Source: Escherichia phage 235Ecol030PP. Taken from it: a stretch of DNA of 64,000 nt. The translations under genes and the position numbers were made by a program. The notes beneath the pieces were generated by a model. The model saw only the letters and a list, made by a program, of their open reading frames with translations. It had not been told where the DNA came from and made no database searches. The stretch is taken from the sequence record PP355091.1, one strand, 5' to 3'. This document shows, one piece after another, positions 37,474 to 40,256 of this stretch; positions within the stretch are counted from its first letter, which is position 1, and every line of letters begins with the position of its first letter.

Positions 37474-37503
37474 ATAGTACCATAGAAGAACAGGGATGTA
37501 AAC
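37474..37503 (-). promoter_or_regulatory. T4-type early promoter
   Basis: -35 GTTTACA (37497-37503), 17-nt spacer, -10 TACTAT (37474-37479). Confidence 0.6.
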
Positions 37504-37633
37504 AGTTTTGTGAAAAATTTTTTAAAAAGTTTTGGGGAATTCTAGGGCAAGGAGGGGAAATTAAAGGATAGGATAATATATTATAAAGGGTAGAAACTAA
37601 ATGATGCCTAGAGAGGCCTGGAAAGGCCTAGAT

Positions 37634-37663
37634 ACCAAAAAGCCCCAACCTTTTGGTCGGGAC
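37634..37663 (-). terminator. Intrinsic terminator (GUCCCGACC-AAAA-GGUUGGGGC plus U5)
   Basis: Hairpin from plus 37642-37663 with U-run from 37634-37641; 9 nt after stop at 37672. Confidence 0.65.
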
Positions 37664-37671
37664 TAAGAATA

Positions 37672-38144
37672 TTATTTGATTTGTTTAGCAGACCAAATGC
37701 GGTCTTTAATAATTTTTTGGATGTCTTCAACATACTCAAGAGAATGAGCATGTGGGTTATCTTTAAAGCTATGAGCACGAGCTAGCTTTTGGCCTTCAGT
37801 TTTGATTACTAAAAGCTCTTTAAGGATAGCTTCATATTTGGAGATAATTCCTTTAACGATATTTTTTCTTGTGCGACTTTAGGATCTGCTTTAGGAGCAG
37901 GTTTACCCGAAGCCTTTGCAAAAGCAGCGCCAGTAGCAACTAAACTTTTCCAGGCCATACTAACTGCATTTCCCGTAAATCCTTCCGCTTTCATGTCGCG
38001 TGCGAACTGGAATCGTGATTCATCAGAAGCATCTTTGTAAGAATATTTACCCGCTGCAATGGCTGCTTTTGCGACAGCTTGAATTTCGGTGCTAGATGCT
38101 TCATTTAACACCGCTTCATTTAAAAATTGAGTATATGATTTCAT
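37672..38144 (-). CDS. Internal-protein-like gene (CTS leader MKSYTQFLNEA), interrupted by a frameshift at an A6 run (37862-37867)
   Basis: Track ORF 37809-38144 (111 aa); one extra A in the A6 run joins it to a 65-codon ORF ending at 37672; late promoter immediately upstream. Confidence 0.5.
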
Positions 38145-38184
38145 CTTATTTCCTGTTTTAATTCGTGGTTTTAATATACTACTA

Positions 38185-38192
38185 TATTTATA
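38185..38192 (-). promoter_or_regulatory. T4 late promoter (TATAAATA) upstream of IP-like gene
   Basis: Minus-strand TATAAATA at 38185-38192, about 40 nt upstream of ATG at 38144. Confidence 0.5.
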
Positions 38193-38221
38193 CCAAAAAG
38201 CCCCAACCTTTCGGTCGGGGC
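38193..38221 (-). terminator. Intrinsic terminator (GCCCCGACC-GAAA-GGUUGGGGC plus U5)
   Basis: Near-identical to hairpin at 37634-37663; closes the stable-RNA region. Confidence 0.65.
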
Positions 38222-38529
38222 TAAGCCTTGCGGCAACCTTGTCGGGGTTCCACCTGCTAAGGCAAGTGTTTGTACGAAACGCCGGGATTCGAACCCGGTT
38301 ATTAAGCAGTTGACGCTACTCAATATTTTTAAAAGGCCATATCTCGACCATATCCGAACGTTCCGTCAAAAACGCTACTCGGTTTACGGCAAAGATATTT
38401 CCTCGAATCGATAATTCGGTGCGCCGTTTCTGCTGTGATAGTAAAGAGCCAGAACACAGTAAAACTGTGGGAGGAAACTATACTCCAGGGAACATCAGTC
38501 CGACGACTTACCGGTAGCGACCCGGTTTC
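38222..38529 (-). ncRNA. Putative phage stable RNA region (T4 RNA C / RNA D-like, tRNA-like elements); boundaries approximate
   Basis: No ORF; contains tRNA-like T-arm CCGGG-UUCGAAU-CCCGG at 38281-38298; follows tRNA-Arg locus and ends at terminator, as for T4 species 1/2 RNAs. Confidence 0.4.
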
Positions 38530-38880
38530 TTAGTATTCTTTTAAAGCATCAACCTGTTCACGACGTTTACGCCATAAATCAATTACTTCATACGCAGATT
38601 CAGCATTTCGAATTGGACGGCATTTATATAAAGACTTGTGATTTTGATATTGTGTAGATAACGGAATTTTATCTAAAAGGTCTTTACGTTCAAAATATTC
38701 GTAACCATCTAAACCAAATGAACGATTTTTGAGAAATTGCCAATGACCATATTCGTTTTCGACATAAACATAATCTGCATGCTGATAAAGCAAATTAATT
38801 ACACGTTCAGAAATAACAGTATCATTATGATTAAAATAGAATGTTAAATCATGAACTACTAAATAAACATTACCTTTCAT
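38530..38880 (-). CDS. Hypothetical protein
   Basis: 116-aa ORF directly downstream of tRNA-Arg. Confidence 0.45.
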   Translation of the reverse strand: MKGNVYLVVHDLTFYFNHNDTVISERVINLLYQHADYVYVENEYGHWQFLKNRSFGLDGYEYFERKDLLDKIPLSTQYQNHKSLYKCRPIRNAESAYEVIDLWRKRREQVDALKEY

Positions 38881-38898
38881 ATTTTCCTCACTTATAAT

Positions 38899-38974
38899 TG
38901 GTCGAGGCAGTAGGGATCGAACCTACGACCCAGGACTTAGAAGGTCCTTGCTCTTCCTTCTGAGCTATGCCCCG
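38899..38974 (-). tRNA. tRNA-Arg (anticodon TCT), CCA encoded
   Basis: Manual fold: acceptor CGGGGCA/TGCCTCG, anticodon stem AGGAC/GTCCT, loop CUUCUAA, T-arm GTAGG-TTCGATC-CCTAC; 76 nt. Confidence 0.85.
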
Positions 38975-38977
38975 TAA

Positions 38978-39643
38978 TTAAAATTTCATTTTTCGACCTT
39001 TAAACCATCCTTCTGGAATTGGGTCAGTTTTCTTAATACGTTTAGAAACTTTTTCATCTAATGAATGAATCCACATCATACCAAATTGGGAATTCTTTTC
39101 GCCCTGTTGATGTTTATTTCTGGCGTGAGATTCTTTCATTTTATTAATAGTTTCAGGAGTATGATGCTTATTTAAAAATCTGCTATTATTTAAAAATTTT
39201 TCCCTGTATTCAGGAGTTGACCACAAGCGTTTAAATACATTTGAACCATGTTTACGATATTTTTCTTGAAGTAAAATATCATTTTTAAAACGTGACTTAA
39301 ACGATTTAGCTCCTTTTAAGCTAGCATCTTTCTTCTGGTTTAGCATCCCAGGAATATTTACATGATCCCATCCACCTTCACCACCAAGTTTTAAATTATA
39401 CACATCTGGTCTATTTAAAAACTCTTCTGTGACAATATTTTTCTCGGCTTCAAGCATAGATTCTTTATCGTCAAAGAACTCTAATATTTCTTTAGAAAAA
39501 TTTTCTATACCATACTTATCTTGGGCTCTTTTTAATAATTTACCAGAACCCATATATCCATCATCTAAATTTTCGGTAGAATGAGCGCCTATATAGATTT
39601 TATTATTAATTTTATTTGTTATTTTATAAATGTAATGGAACAT
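38978..39643 (-). CDS. segB: GIY-YIG homing endonuclease SegB within tRNA cluster
   Basis: 221 aa; MFHYIYKITNKINNKIYIGAHS (GIY-YIG) N-terminus; located between tRNA-Arg and main tRNA cluster as in T4. Confidence 0.85.
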   Translation of the reverse strand: MFHYIYKITNKINNKIYIGAHSTENLDDGYMGSGKLLKRAQDKYGIENFSKEILEFFDDKESMLEAEKNIVTEEFLNRPDVYNLKLGGEGGWDHVNIPGMLNQKKDASLKGAKSFKSRFKNDILLQEKYRKHGSNVFKRLWSTPEYREKFLNNSRFLNKHHTPETINKMKESHARNKHQQGEKNSQFGMMWIHSLDEKVSKRIKKTDPIPEGWFKGRKMKF

Positions 39644-39684
39644 AAATATCTCCTATTTCTAAGAGTATTTATGTTCTCAAAATA

Positions 39685-39756
39685 TGGCCCTGGGTGGAAT
39701 TGAACCACCATCTGGCGATTATGAGTCGCTTGCTTGAACCTTCCAGCTACAGGGCC
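39685..39756 (-). tRNA. tRNA-Ile (anticodon CAT; Met-type anticodon, assigned Ile by T4 precedent), CCA not encoded
   Basis: Acceptor GGCCCTG/CAGGGCC, anticodon loop CUCAUAA, T-arm GGTGG-TTCAATT-CCACC; 72 nt. Confidence 0.8.
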
Positions 39757-39762
39757 TTGATA

Positions 39763-39835
39763 TGCTGATTGACGGAATCGAACCGCCGACGTCCTCATTA
39801 CAAGTGAGGTGCTCTACCTACTGAGCTAAATCAGC
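39763..39835 (-). tRNA. tRNA-Thr (anticodon TGT), CCA not encoded
   Basis: Acceptor GCTGATT/AATCAGC, anticodon stem CCTCA/TGAGG loop CUUGUAA; 73 nt. Confidence 0.85.
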
Positions 39836-39842
39836 GAAATTA

Positions 39843-39929
39843 CGGAGGCGATAGGATTTGAACCTATGAGTCGCCGGAGCGACTGCCGGTTTTCAAGACC
39901 GGTGCATTAAACCACTCTGCCACGCCTCC
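39843..39929 (-). tRNA. tRNA-Ser (anticodon TGA), long variable arm, CCA not encoded
   Basis: Acceptor GGAGGCG/CGCCTCC, anticodon stem CCGGT/ACCGG loop CUUGAAA; 87 nt. Confidence 0.85.
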
Positions 39930-39931
39930 AG

Positions 39932-40005
39932 TCTCCGTGGCAGGATTTGAACCTACGACATTCTGCTCCCAAAGCAGACGCTCTACCAAACTGAGCTACA
40001 CGGAG
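39932..40005 (-). tRNA. tRNA-Pro (anticodon TGG), CCA not encoded; separated from tRNA-Ser by 2 nt
   Basis: Acceptor CTCCGTG/CACGGAG, anticodon stem TCTGC/GCAGA loop UUUGGGA; 74 nt. Confidence 0.85.
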
Positions 40006-40017
40006 TAAATTAAATTT

Positions 40018-40089
<72 letters not shown>

Positions 40090-40095
40090 AAACTT

Positions 40096-40182
40096 TGGTA
40101 CGAGAAGTGGGACTCGAACCCACAAGGAAATCATTCCGCAGCATTTTAAGTGCTGTGTCTTTACCAATTTGACCATTCTCGC
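40096..40182 (-). tRNA. tRNA-Leu (anticodon TAA), long variable arm, CCA encoded
   Basis: Acceptor GCGAGAA/TTCTCGT, anticodon stem CAGCA/TGCTG loop CUUAAAA; 87 nt. Confidence 0.85.
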
Positions 40183-40183
40183 G

Positions 40184-40256
40184 CTGGGAATAAAGGACTC
40201 GAACCTTTGCATCCTGGAATCAAAATCCAGTGCCTTACCAACTTGGCTAATTCCCA
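40184..40256 (-). tRNA. tRNA-Gln (anticodon TTG), CCA not encoded; 1 nt from tRNA-Leu
   Basis: Acceptor TGGGAAT/ATTCCCA, anticodon stem CTGGA/TCCAG loop UUUUGAU; 73 nt. Confidence 0.85.

What the first reader, a model, noticed from the sequence alone, without database searches (positions are those of the whole stretch)
38193..38529. Non-coding block between two near-identical terminators, downstream of tRNA-Arg: candidate stable RNAs
About 300 nt have no ORF, contain a tRNA-like T-arm (CCGGG-UUCGAAU-CCCGG) without a canonical acceptor or anticodon arm, and end at a strong terminator. A twin terminator follows the next gene at 37634-37663. The position corresponds to T4 species 1/2 RNAs (RNA C and D), whose function is still unknown.
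Basis: partly seen in the sequence, partly recalled or inferred. Interest (0 to 1): 0.45.

Follow-up and report, generated by a model that had tools for sequence, protein, structure and literature searches.

The report
T4 small stable RNAs rnaC, rnaD
The non-coding block is this T4-like phage's copy of two small stable RNAs known since the 1970s, and one of them turns out to be a conserved tRNA-shaped molecule whose two arm tips appear to pair with each other, which gives a testable handle on a function that is still unknown.

Summary
Window 38533-38273 (- strand) is homologous to the annotated phage T4 genes rnaD (species 2) and rnaC (species 1). A conserved trailer and an intrinsic terminator follow. 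The window is a Tequatrovirus closest to phage EC121. So the feature is already known, and the papers held here still call its function unknown.

Two corrections. First, rnaC does have an acceptor-like stem next to its T arm. Second, the twin terminator marks a 558-bp inserted gene cassette.

Comparing 33 distinct rnaC homologs from 10 named phage genera gave a cloverleaf-like model with strong covariation:
- a 7-bp acceptor-like stem and a T arm;
- a 70-72-nt rod where a tRNA has its D arm;
- a 26-nt hairpin where a tRNA has its anticodon arm.

The two arm tips carry complementary hexaloops, UUGACG and CGUCAA. In Marfavirus phages they change together to UUGGCG and CGCCAA, which supports loop-loop pairing. 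Marfavirus and Pectobacterium phage PM2 also encode U-CCA at the 3' end.

My best reading is a tRNA-derived RNA cut out by host tRNA-processing enzymes, locked by a kissing loop, and acting in trans as a non-essential tRNA mimic. Identity is near certain, the structure is well supported, and the function is inferred.

The parts
38899..38974 (-). tRNA-Arg (UCU), the last tRNA of the phage tRNA cluster (context)
   Evidence: ARAGORN; Rfam RF00005, 63.9 bits; corresponds to T4 tRNA-Arg.
38530..38880 (-). 116-aa ORF inserted between tRNA-Arg and rnaD; absent from T4; homolog of the phage T2L 'trna.2' ORF; its stop codon (38532-38530) overlaps the T4-equivalent 5' end of rnaD
   Evidence: the ORF listing. 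PHROG 3355, unknown function, E = 8.5e-55. No Pfam match. T2L trna.2 primers #24 and #25 in PMC2330249 each match the ORF ends with one mismatch. EC121 annotates the same CDS.
38418..38533 (-). rnaD (species 2 RNA) homolog: a 5' hairpin (38526-38510, with the invariant 7-nt loop GUCGCUA) plus a long irregular hairpin with a conserved base and a variable tip
   Evidence: Alignment to the T4 misc_RNA rnaD. 13 distinct homologs: 93.7% of cells paired against 31-48% when the partners are slid, and 10 pairs with double changes against 3-5. Folding energy is not exceptional, z = -0.28.
38273..38411 (-). rnaC (species 1 RNA) homolog: a tRNA-derived cloverleaf-like RNA
   Evidence: Alignment to the T4 misc_RNA rnaC. 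Covariance model R1: 157.8 bits, E = 1e-32, the only hit in the window. Folding energy z = -3.97. Covariation.
38404..38410 (-). rnaC P1, 5' strand of the acceptor-like stem (CGAUUCG); it pairs with 38281-38275 (CGUUUCG)
   Evidence: Pair 3-70 switches between A-U and G-C. Phage PM2 has a fully Watson-Crick stem.
38334..38403 (-). rnaC long arm (P2-P2b-P3-P4, a bulge, then P5) in the D-arm position; terminal hexaloop UUGACG at 38369-38364
   Evidence: The length is 70-72 nt in all 33 homologs, even where the sequence is entirely replaced. All P5 pairs covary.
38300..38325 (-). rnaC P6, a 10-bp hairpin in the anticodon-arm position; hexaloop CGUCAA at 38315-38310, complementary to the UUGACG loop
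   Evidence: 9 of 10 stem pairs show double changes. In the loop-loop helix 99.5% of cells pair, with one compensatory A-U to G-C change in 5 Marfavirus sequences.
38282..38298 (-). rnaC T arm (CCGGG-UUCGAAU-CCCGG)
   Evidence: The middle stem pair covaries (G-C, U-A, A-U). The loop consensus is lost in some lineages (UGCAUUC, UGCAUGC).
38223..38272 (-). conserved 3' trailer between rnaC and the terminator, with two small hairpins and a degenerate copy of the terminator core (CCCCGAC..AAGGUUG)
   Evidence: Conserved with T4. Retained in phage VR26, which has lost rnaC and rnaD. Folded together with the terminator, z = -4.1.
38195..38222 (-). intrinsic terminator 1, the end of the tRNA/rnaD/rnaC transcription unit
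   Evidence: Terminator scan. Identical position in T4. PMC2330249 states that transcription terminates after the species I gene.
37636..38194 (-). 558-bp cassette absent from T4: a T4 late-promoter-like TATAAATA (38192-38185), a PHROG 2280 ORF (38144-37809, frameshifted), and terminator 2 (37664-37636)
   Evidence: 36-nt direct repeat 558 bp apart. Three-way alignment with T4's single terminator. PHROG hit. 1-nt deletion relative to EC121.

Best explanation
The block holds the phage's rnaD and rnaC genes. These are two small stable RNAs made as the 3' end of the long tRNA-cluster transcript, which stops at the terminator at 38222-38195.

rnaC is a tRNA-derived cloverleaf. A 7-bp acceptor-like stem stacked on a T arm forms a tRNA 'top half'. 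I infer that this lets the host tRNA-processing enzymes (RNase P at the 5' end, 3' trimming) cut it out of the precursor. This would work wherever the gene sits: inside a tRNA cluster, at its end, or on its own.

The D arm and the anticodon arm are replaced by a 70-nt rod and a 26-nt hairpin. Their hexaloops, UUGACG and CGUCAA, pair with each other. I think this pairing closes the molecule into a compact shape that resists nucleases. The arithmetic fits: P2-P4 is 21 bp going out, and P5 + kiss + P6 is 21 bp coming back.

The most likely function is a non-essential, trans-acting tRNA mimic. It would occupy or recruit a tRNA-binding factor of the host or the phage, and would matter only in some hosts.

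rnaD is a hairpin RNA specific to Tequatrovirus and its near relatives. It sits where other genera have an ordinary tRNA.

Shown here: identity, secondary structure, loop complementarity with one compensatory change, and the length constraint. Inferred: the processing route, whether the kiss is within one molecule or between molecules, and the function.
For: Identity:
- The block aligns to the T4 records that annotate rnaC and rnaD.
- 740-817 phage records match.
- The covariance model gives a single hit of 157.8 bits in the window.

Structure (33 distinct homologs, 10 named genera):
- 90.8% of cells pair, against 37-46% when the partners are slid.
- 34 pairs show double changes, against 8-12 in the slid controls; 0 of 500 shuffles reach the observed values.
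- Independent minimum-energy folds of divergent members give the same four-way junction.

Loop-loop pairing:
- The hexaloops are invariant while their stems covary. They are perfectly complementary.
- Five Marfavirus sequences carry UUGGCG and CGCCAA, a compensatory A-U to G-C change.
- The mismatched combination UUGACG/CGCCAA loses most of the duplex energy (-0.4 against -5.5 and -7.6 kcal/mol).

tRNA likeness:
- The acceptor stem directly follows the T arm.
- PM2 has a fully paired 7-bp stem, and PM2 and Marfavirus encode U-CCA at the 3' end.
- ARAGORN calls the PG7 homolog a 95-nt tRNA.
- In most genera the gene sits directly between two tRNAs.

Independent function:
- The RNA is kept where the neighbouring tRNAs are gone (Kosakonia phage 305, VR7, Marfavirus).
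- Arm lengths are fixed at 70-72 nt and 25-26 nt even though the sequence is replaced.

Expression and role in T4:
- Northern blots show RNAC as a discrete late RNA (PMC9697503).
- The region is not essential (PMC2330249).
- A convergent SNP in rnaD arose in all three lines of a T4-like phage evolved on the semi-permissive host ECOR34 (PMC12685909).
Against: - The loop-loop covariation rests on one evolutionary event, the Marfavirus clade. PM2 keeps only a 4-bp core (GACG/CGUC).
- No tool here can tell an intramolecular kiss from dimer or multimer formation. A 180-degree turn at a 3-4-nt bulge is demanding.
- The 3' end is U-ACA-A, not CCA, in 27 of the 33 sequences. T4's annotated mature end is ...GUA.
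- The T-loop consensus is lost in Winklervirus-like lineages. Full tRNA mimicry at the elbow is therefore not required.
- There is no direct evidence for any binding partner.
- RNase P processing is inferred from the shape and the genomic position, not tested.
- Phage VR26 has lost both RNAs.
- The rnaD fold has no thermodynamic signal (z = -0.28).
Confidence: 0.6

Rival explanations
1. rnaC molecules link to one another through the two complementary loops ('hand in hand'). They would form dimers or rings that act as a scaffold, as phi29 packaging RNA does, instead of closing on themselves.
For: The two loops sit at the ends of arms of very different length (about 26 bp against 10 bp). An intramolecular contact therefore needs a sharp fold-back, whereas intermolecular pairing does not. 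The complementarity and its compensatory change fit both models equally well. The fixed arm lengths also suit a defined oligomer.
Against: The bp arithmetic (21 bp out, 21 bp back) fits an intramolecular closure. No RNA requirement is known for T4 assembly or packaging (my own knowledge). No data here address oligomers.
Confidence: 0.15
2. The RNAs are cis-acting by-products. They would be structured spacers or 3' caps that help process or stabilise the tRNA precursor, and have no role once released.
For: They are co-transcribed with the tRNAs and lie at the 3' end of the T4 cluster, just before the terminator. The region is dispensable in T4. VR26 lacks them.
Against: In most genera rnaC lies in the middle of the cluster, not at its end. 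It is kept where the flanking tRNAs are absent. Invariant loops, a compensatory loop change and fixed arm lengths go well beyond what a spacer needs. The RNA accumulates as a stable species.
Confidence: 0.08
3. rnaC and/or rnaD are antisense regulators. Exposed loops such as UUGACG, which contains the U-turn motif YUNR, would pair with phage or host mRNAs.
For: The loops are invariant and single-stranded in the secondary structure. One carries a YUNR-type sequence (UUGA), typical of fast-pairing antisense loops (my own knowledge). The SNP selected in rnaD suggests a host-dependent role.
Against: The two loops covary with each other. This points to mutual pairing, not to a shared external target. 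Six nucleotides are too few to predict targets. [quoted passage not shown]
Confidence: 0.08
4. They are decaying tRNA pseudogenes with no function.
For: They have tRNA-like parts and lie in a tRNA cluster. rnaD occupies the slot of a normal tRNA in other genera. The central part of rnaD is poorly conserved.
Against: rnaC is conserved at 70-100% identity across 10 named genera, with 34 covarying pairs and invariant loops. A pseudogene would not keep its structure by compensatory changes.
Confidence: 0.04

Closest known systems
Phage T4 rnaC (species 1 RNA) and rnaD (species 2 RNA)
   Same: Direct homologs. The order is the same (rnaD, then rnaC, then trailer, then terminator), on the same strand as the tRNA cluster. 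rnaC differs from T4 at 3 of about 140 positions. The conserved ends of rnaD are identical.
   Different: Here a 116-aa ORF separates tRNA-Arg from rnaD, whereas in T4 they are adjacent. The central hairpin of rnaD has a different sequence. An extra gene cassette follows the terminator.
Canonical tRNA (Rfam RF00005)
   Same: A four-way junction; a 7-bp acceptor-type stem contiguous with a 5-bp T stem and a 7-nt loop (UUCGAAU); position inside tRNA clusters; U-CCA 3' end in two lineages.
   Different: There is no D arm (a 70-nt rod takes its place). The 'anticodon' arm has 10 bp and a 6-nt loop. The variable region is 1 nt. There are two U.U mismatches in the acceptor stem. There is no encoded CCA in this window. 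Neither Rfam nor ARAGORN calls it a tRNA here.
tmRNA tRNA-like domain, and viral tRNA-like elements used as processing handles (for example the MHV68 vtRNA/TMER units; my own knowledge)
   Same: Only the acceptor/T-arm half of a tRNA is kept, and it is attached to a non-tRNA body. It probably serves recognition by tRNA-processing enzymes.
   Different: There is no tag reading frame and no G3.U70 alanine identity pair (pair 3-70 is A-U or G-C). ARAGORN finds no tmRNA. There is no sequence relationship.
phi29 packaging RNA and other kissing-loop RNAs (my own knowledge)
   Same: Two hairpin loops of one RNA are complementary, and the complementarity is kept by compensatory change across relatives.
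   Different: There is no sequence or fold similarity. Oligomerisation was not tested here. T4 is not known to need an RNA for packaging.
PeSL-type / terminator-flanked gene cassettes of T4-type phages (my own knowledge: Arbiol, Comeau and Krisch 2010)
   Same: An accessory ORF bounded by near-identical stem-loop terminators, present in some relatives and absent in others. This is consistent with gain or loss by recombination between the repeats.
   Different: The promoter-like element after terminator 1 matches the late consensus TATAAATA, not an early promoter. Recombination was not demonstrated.

Membership tests
T4 rnaC (species 1 RNA) | Sequence homology to the annotated T4 rnaC over its full length | tested here: met
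   Pairwise alignment with NC_000866 70908-71046. The covariance model gives 157.8 bits for the window against 158.9 bits for T4 itself.
T4 rnaC (species 1 RNA) | Lies in the tRNA transcription unit, same strand, upstream of the unit's intrinsic terminator | tested here: met
   Synteny with T4, EC121 and many relatives.
T4 rnaC (species 1 RNA) | Accumulates as a discrete stable RNA of about 140 nt in infected cells | not testable with these tools
   Shown for T4 by Northern blot (PMC9697503). Not shown for this phage.
T4 rnaD (species 2 RNA) | Sequence homology to the annotated T4 rnaD | tested here: met
   The 5' part (about 45 nt) and the 3' part (about 25 nt) are identical to T4. The central hairpin is replaced but keeps a hairpin shape.
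T4 rnaD (species 2 RNA) | Directly follows tRNA-Arg (as in T4) | tested here: not met
   A 351-nt ORF (38880-38530) intervenes, as in phage T2L and many relatives. This is a difference of context and does not affect homology.
tRNA (RF00005) | Acceptor stem contiguous with a T arm | tested here: met
   P1 plus P7, with covariation at pairs 3-70 and 51-63.
tRNA (RF00005) | D arm, 5-bp anticodon stem with a 7-nt loop, and a score above the family threshold | tested here: not met
   No Rfam tRNA hit in the block at E up to 10, apart from a weak tRNA-Sec match (16.6 bits against a gathering score of 47). ARAGORN finds none.
tRNA (RF00005) | 3'-terminal N-CCA | tested here: not met
   The window has U-ACA-A. 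U-CCA is encoded only in Marfavirus and PM2. Addition after transcription was not tested.
tmRNA | tRNA-like domain with G3.U70 plus an internal tag reading frame | tested here: not met
   ARAGORN finds no tmRNA. Pair 3-70 is A-U or G-C, with G-U in one sequence (PM2).
Kissing-loop (loop-loop) tertiary pairing | Two hairpin loops are complementary, and the complementarity is kept by compensatory change | tested here: met
   6 of 6 pairs; 99.5% of cells paired; pair 46/105 is A-U in 28 sequences and G-C in 5. This is one evolutionary event only, and physical pairing was not tested.
Intrinsic (Rho-independent) terminator | G+C-rich hairpin followed by a U tract at the end of a transcription unit | tested here: met
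   10-bp stems with 7 and 6 G-C pairs and a UUUUU tract. Termination itself was not measured.
Y RNA-like / YrlA and other curated sRNA families (Rfam 15) | A match to the family covariance model | tested here: not met
   No match at gathering thresholds. Only chance-level hits at E up to 10.

The most novel reading that the evidence does not exclude
rnaC is a functional tRNA mimic closed by a kissing loop. Its acceptor end, CCA-bearing in some lineages, would be engaged by a tRNA-handling enzyme or by a tRNA-targeting host defence. The RNA would then act as a decoy or adapter that widens host range. This would give the 50-year-old 'species 1 RNA' a function and define a new class of phage counter-defence or translation-modulating RNA.
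Probability: 0.2. Interest if true: 0.75.

Novelty: already known. Interest (0 to 1): 0.4.

Why it matters
rnaC and rnaD were among the first small RNAs ever sequenced, and the papers held here still list their function as unknown. As a locus, the window's copy is ordinary.

The comparison made here adds several points:
- rnaC is conserved well beyond T4, in at least 10 named genera including Marfavirus.
- It is under strong structural selection.
- It is built like a tRNA, with its D arm and anticodon arm swapped for two arms whose tips pair.
- It carries a real CCA end in some lineages.

This turns 'function unknown' into defined experiments: loop and compensatory mutants, RNase P and CCA-addition assays, pull-downs, and host-panel tests.

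It also exposes annotation errors in relatives, where the RNA is annotated as a 45-aa protein or as a 95-nt tRNA-Met. I could not check whether the 1970s-80s literature already drew this structure, because those papers are not held in the library.

Tried and rejected
1. Rfam. All 4227 families at gathering thresholds over the whole window, and at E up to 10 on 37500-39000, gave nothing but the eight tRNAs and chance-level hits. No curated family exists for these RNAs.

2. ARAGORN found no tRNA or tmRNA in the block.

3. An alternative acceptor pairing. The internal ACGGAACG could pair with the 3' CGUUUCGU, and this is what lets ARAGORN call the PG7 copy a 95-nt tRNA-Met. I rejected it because the pairing is broken (A.C) in Moon, Kc304 and LC53, while the 5'-end pairing holds in all sequences.

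4. Alternative pairing of the 3' tail. CGUACAA or CGUCCAA can pair with loop 1 (6 bp with a 1-nt bulge). This holds in the T4 type and the Marfavirus type but not in PM2. I left it unexplained. The CCA reading of the tail change is simpler.

5. The coding hypothesis. Only ORFs of 32-50 aa occur, on mixed strands. Relatives differ by indels and by replacement of whole arms, yet keep the base pairing. The 45-aa CDS annotated in Marfavirus lies over the RNA.

6. Searches for more distant relatives.
   - Loose structural patterns in viral contigs returned only T4-type phages plus four chance matches, L039-L042, which show no resemblance to rnaC on inspection and contain no ARAGORN tRNA.
   - The metagenome scan returned ten contigs; the nine compared all carry T4-type sequences.
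   - The genome scan gave three contigs that the model does not recognise.

7. Literature searches for a described function found none. The original 1970s-80s papers and the 2003 T4 genome review are not held.

8. rnaD as a degenerate tRNA. It has no T arm and no acceptor pairing of its 5' end, and its CCA-like end (CACCA in T4) is not conserved (CACCG, CACAG). The idea is not supported, beyond rnaD sitting in the slot of a tRNA.

Full report
**What the window is.** The region is from a T4-type phage. A 501-nt query around the finding matches 740 phage records, and the best match is Escherichia phage EC121 (Tequatrovirus) at 99.8% identity. ARAGORN and Rfam find eight tRNAs on the - strand at 38899-40256. 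Their order (Gln, Leu, Gly, Pro, Ser, Thr, a CAU-anticodon tRNA that T4 annotates as Ile, then Arg) is that of the T4 cluster. A 221-aa ORF sits between the CAU tRNA and tRNA-Arg, where T4 has the homing endonuclease gene segB.

**Checking the observation.** All described elements are present.
- The block 38193-38529 has no ORF of 60 aa or more; the longest is 50 aa.
- The T arm CCGGG-UUCGAAU-CCCGG is at 38298-38282 on the - strand.
- Two terminator-like hairpins lie at 38222-38199 and 37664-37641 on the - strand. Each has 10 bp and a U tract.
- They belong to a 36-nt direct repeat, 94% identical, with copies 558 bp apart.

**What it is.** The T4 reference record annotates, right after tRNA-Arg, misc_RNA rnaD ('species 2 RNA', 119 nt) and misc_RNA rnaC ('species 1 RNA', 139 nt). 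Aligning that stretch with the window's - strand shows clear homology.
- rnaC is almost identical, differing at 3 positions.
- rnaD shares its first 45 nt or so and its last 25 nt or so, with a different central part.
- The trailer and the terminator are also shared.

Transferred to the window, rnaD is about 38533-38418 and rnaC is about 38411-38273.

In T4, RNAC is detected by Northern blot and both RNAs are classed as late (PMC9697503). The Northern probe given in that paper starts at UCGAUUCG, the same 5' end as the annotation. The whole cluster is thought to be one transcript of about 1.75 kb that ends after the species I gene, and the region is not essential (PMC2330249). Three papers from 2010, 2022 and 2025 state that the function is unknown.

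**Differences from T4 in the surroundings.**
- A 116-aa ORF (38880-38530, PHROG 3355, unknown function, no Pfam match) lies between tRNA-Arg and rnaD. Its ends match the primers that define the 'trna.2' ORF of phage T2L, each with one mismatch. The window thus combines a T4-like segB with a T2L-like trna.2. The ORF's stop codon overlaps the T4-equivalent 5' end of rnaD, so that end cannot be produced here by maturation of tRNA-Arg as in T4.
- T4 has one terminator. Its upstream flank matches the window's terminator 1, and its downstream flank matches the window's terminator 2. The 558 bp between them form an inserted cassette. It has a TATAAATA sequence at 38192-38185, which is the T4 late-promoter consensus (my own knowledge). 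It has a PHROG 2280 ORF and a second copy of the terminator. That ORF carries a 1-nt deletion relative to EC121 at 37867/37866, which truncates it from 157 to 111 aa.

**rnaC is widespread and tRNA-shaped.** Sensitive BLAST found the rnaC part, but not rnaD, in other genera. I fetched loci from these named genera:
- Tequatrovirus, Mosigvirus, Gaprivervirus, Moonvirus and Karamvirus;
- Winklervirus, Kanagawavirus, Gelderlandvirus, Mosugukvirus and Marfavirus.

I also took viral and metagenome contigs. In most genera the RNA sits directly between two tRNAs, for example after tRNA-Trp and before tRNA-Gly. In Kosakonia phage 305, VR7 and Marfavirus it is kept with no tRNA directly adjacent, or with just one tRNA about 70 nt upstream. 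VR26 has lost it.

Independent minimum-energy folds of divergent members give the same four-way junction. I built a covariance model from 21 sequences and used it to align 33 distinct homologs. On that alignment the model structure is well supported:
- 90.8% of cells form pairs, against 37-46% when the partners are slid;
- 34 pairs show changes on both sides, against 8-12 in the slid controls;
- 0 of 500 shuffles reach the observed values.

The alignment is fitted to the model, which favours the nested pairs. However, an independent MAFFT alignment gave the same picture.

**The parts of rnaC.**
- P1 is a 7-bp acceptor-like stem (CGAUUCG with CGUUUCG). It has two U.U mismatches that are invariant in 32 of 33 sequences, and pair 3-70 switches between A-U and G-C. 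In Pectobacterium phage PM2 both U.U positions are U-A pairs and pair 1-72 is A-U, so the stem is fully paired.
- A long arm (P2, P2b, P3, P4, a 3-4-nt bulge, then P5) stands in the D-arm position.
- P6 is a 10-bp hairpin in the anticodon-arm position.
- The T arm follows.

A subset of homologs has a completely different sequence in the interior of the long arm. This subset comprises KMB17, KaAlpha, NM4.3, Kosakonia 305, PEi20, Melville, Ursula, Marfavirus and PM2. They keep the same helices, and the arm is 70-72 nt in all 33 sequences. P6 with its loop is 26 nt, or 25 nt in PM2.

**The two loops pair.** The P5 loop is UUGACG and the P6 loop is CGUCAA in 27 of 33 sequences. Both stay invariant while their stems covary, and they are perfectly complementary. 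All five Marfavirus sequences in the alignment have UUGGCG and CGCCAA. This is a change on both sides of the predicted A-U pair to G-C, and two further Marfavirus-type contigs show the same.

The loops were not part of the model's structure, so this result is not an alignment artefact. One mixed combination, UUGACG with CGCCAA, loses almost all duplex stability (-0.4 against -5.5 and -7.6 kcal/mol). The other, UUGGCG with CGUCAA, still pairs through a G.U wobble (-4.9 kcal/mol). PM2 has GAGACG and CGUCA, which keeps a 4-bp core. The support is real but rests on a single evolutionary event.

Whether the pairing is within one molecule or between molecules cannot be decided here. I note that P2+P2b+P3+P4 add up to 21 bp, and P5 + loop-loop helix + P6 also add up to 21 bp. 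That fits a closed double rod hinged at the bulge. This is inference only.

**The 3' end.** After the acceptor strand the window reads U-ACA-A, as do most relatives. Marfavirus and PM2 read U-CCA, the tRNA ending. T4's annotated mature end is ...GUA. In Winklervirus-like lineages the T loop is UGCAUUC or UGCAUGC, which lacks the tRNA T-loop consensus. The constraint therefore seems to fall on the acceptor/T-stem helix and not on a tRNA elbow.

**rnaD.** I found it only in Tequatrovirus and close relatives (16 distinct sequences). It has:
- a 5-bp hairpin with the invariant loop GUCGCUA, whose closing pair covaries;
- a long hairpin with an invariant base and a tip that differs between lineages but stays paired.

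The figures are 93.7% paired against 31-48% when slid, and 10 pairs with double changes against 3-5. That structure was derived from the same alignment, and the fold is not thermodynamically unusual (z = -0.28), so the support is moderate. Its CCA-like end in T4 (CACCA) is not conserved. A 2025 evolution study found one shared SNP inside rnaD in all three lines of a T4-like phage adapted to host ECOR34. This hints at a host-dependent role.

**How it most likely works.**
- Shown: the two RNAs are homologs of known stable T4 RNAs, and rnaC has a conserved tRNA-like cloverleaf with complementary, co-varying arm loops and fixed arm lengths.
- Inferred: the acceptor/T-arm half serves as a handle for RNase P and 3' trimming, so that the RNA is released from any tRNA-type precursor. 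The loop-loop contact locks it into a compact, stable shape. It acts in trans as a tRNA mimic toward some tRNA-binding factor, and is dispensable in laboratory hosts.

I put identity at about 0.97, the secondary structure at about 0.85, loop-loop pairing at about 0.65, and the proposed function at about 0.25. They are listed with their evidence in the rival explanations.

**Verdict.** The finding is real and was correctly identified, and as a locus it is already known. The interest lies in the open question of function and in the structural model derived here. I could not check that model against the original 1970s-80s literature, which is not held in the library.

Noticed in passing
window 37809-38144 (-), frameshift at 37867/37866; the reading frame would otherwise run to 37672: The PHROG 2280 ORF in the inserted cassette has a 1-nt deletion in an A-rich run relative to EC121 (AAGA-AAAAAT against AAGAGAAAAAT). 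This cuts the product from 157 to 111 aa. It is either a pseudogene or a sequencing error.
   Followed up: partly
window 37636-38225 (-): A 558-bp cassette bounded by 36-nt terminator repeats is absent from T4. It starts with TATAAATA (38192-38185), the T4 late-promoter consensus. It looks like a gene gained or lost by recombination between duplicated terminators.
   Followed up: partly
window 38530-38880 (-): The window combines a T4-like segB gene (38978-39643) with a T2L-like 'trna.2' ORF. In the published T4 x T2L comparison these belong to different phages. The ORF's stop codon overlaps the expected 5' end of rnaD.
   Followed up: partly
window 38223-38272 (-): The trailer between rnaC and the terminator is conserved. 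It contains a degenerate third copy of the terminator core (CCCCGAC..AAGGUUG). Phage VR26 keeps the trailer and terminator although it has lost rnaC and rnaD (L026, about 900-960).
   Followed up: no
L046 416-553, L047 416-553, L048 418-555, L051 417-554 (Marfavirus); L004 1554-1648 (PG7): Public records annotate the rnaC homolog as a 45-aa hypothetical protein with a ribosome-binding site (Marfavirus), or as a 95-nt tRNA-Met (PG7). Both look like mis-annotations of the RNA gene.
   Followed up: partly
L003 (Citrobacter phage Moon), tRNA features: In the Moon record the tRNAs are annotated on the strand opposite to the one where ARAGORN finds them, which is the strand of the neighbouring genes. 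The strand of the tRNA features in that record appears to be flipped.
   Followed up: no
window 38270-38276 (-) compared with loop 2 at 38310-38315 (-): The 3' tail CGUACAA resembles loop 2 (CGUCAA). It could pair with loop 1 (6 bp with one bulge). The Marfavirus versions (CGUCCAA with UUGGCG) keep this possibility, but PM2 does not. It may be a coincidence of the CCA-like tail.
   Followed up: partly
L023 (phage KMB17) 636-776: In KMB17 the complementarity between the loop-1 side and the loop-2 side extends to 15 nt (AAAGUAGUUGACGCU with AGCGUCAACUACUUU). The minimum-energy fold therefore pairs the two hairpins directly instead of forming them separately.
   Followed up: no
window 39685-39756 (-): ARAGORN calls the CAU-anticodon tRNA 'Met'. 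It corresponds to the gene that the T4 record annotates as tRNA-Ile.
   Followed up: no
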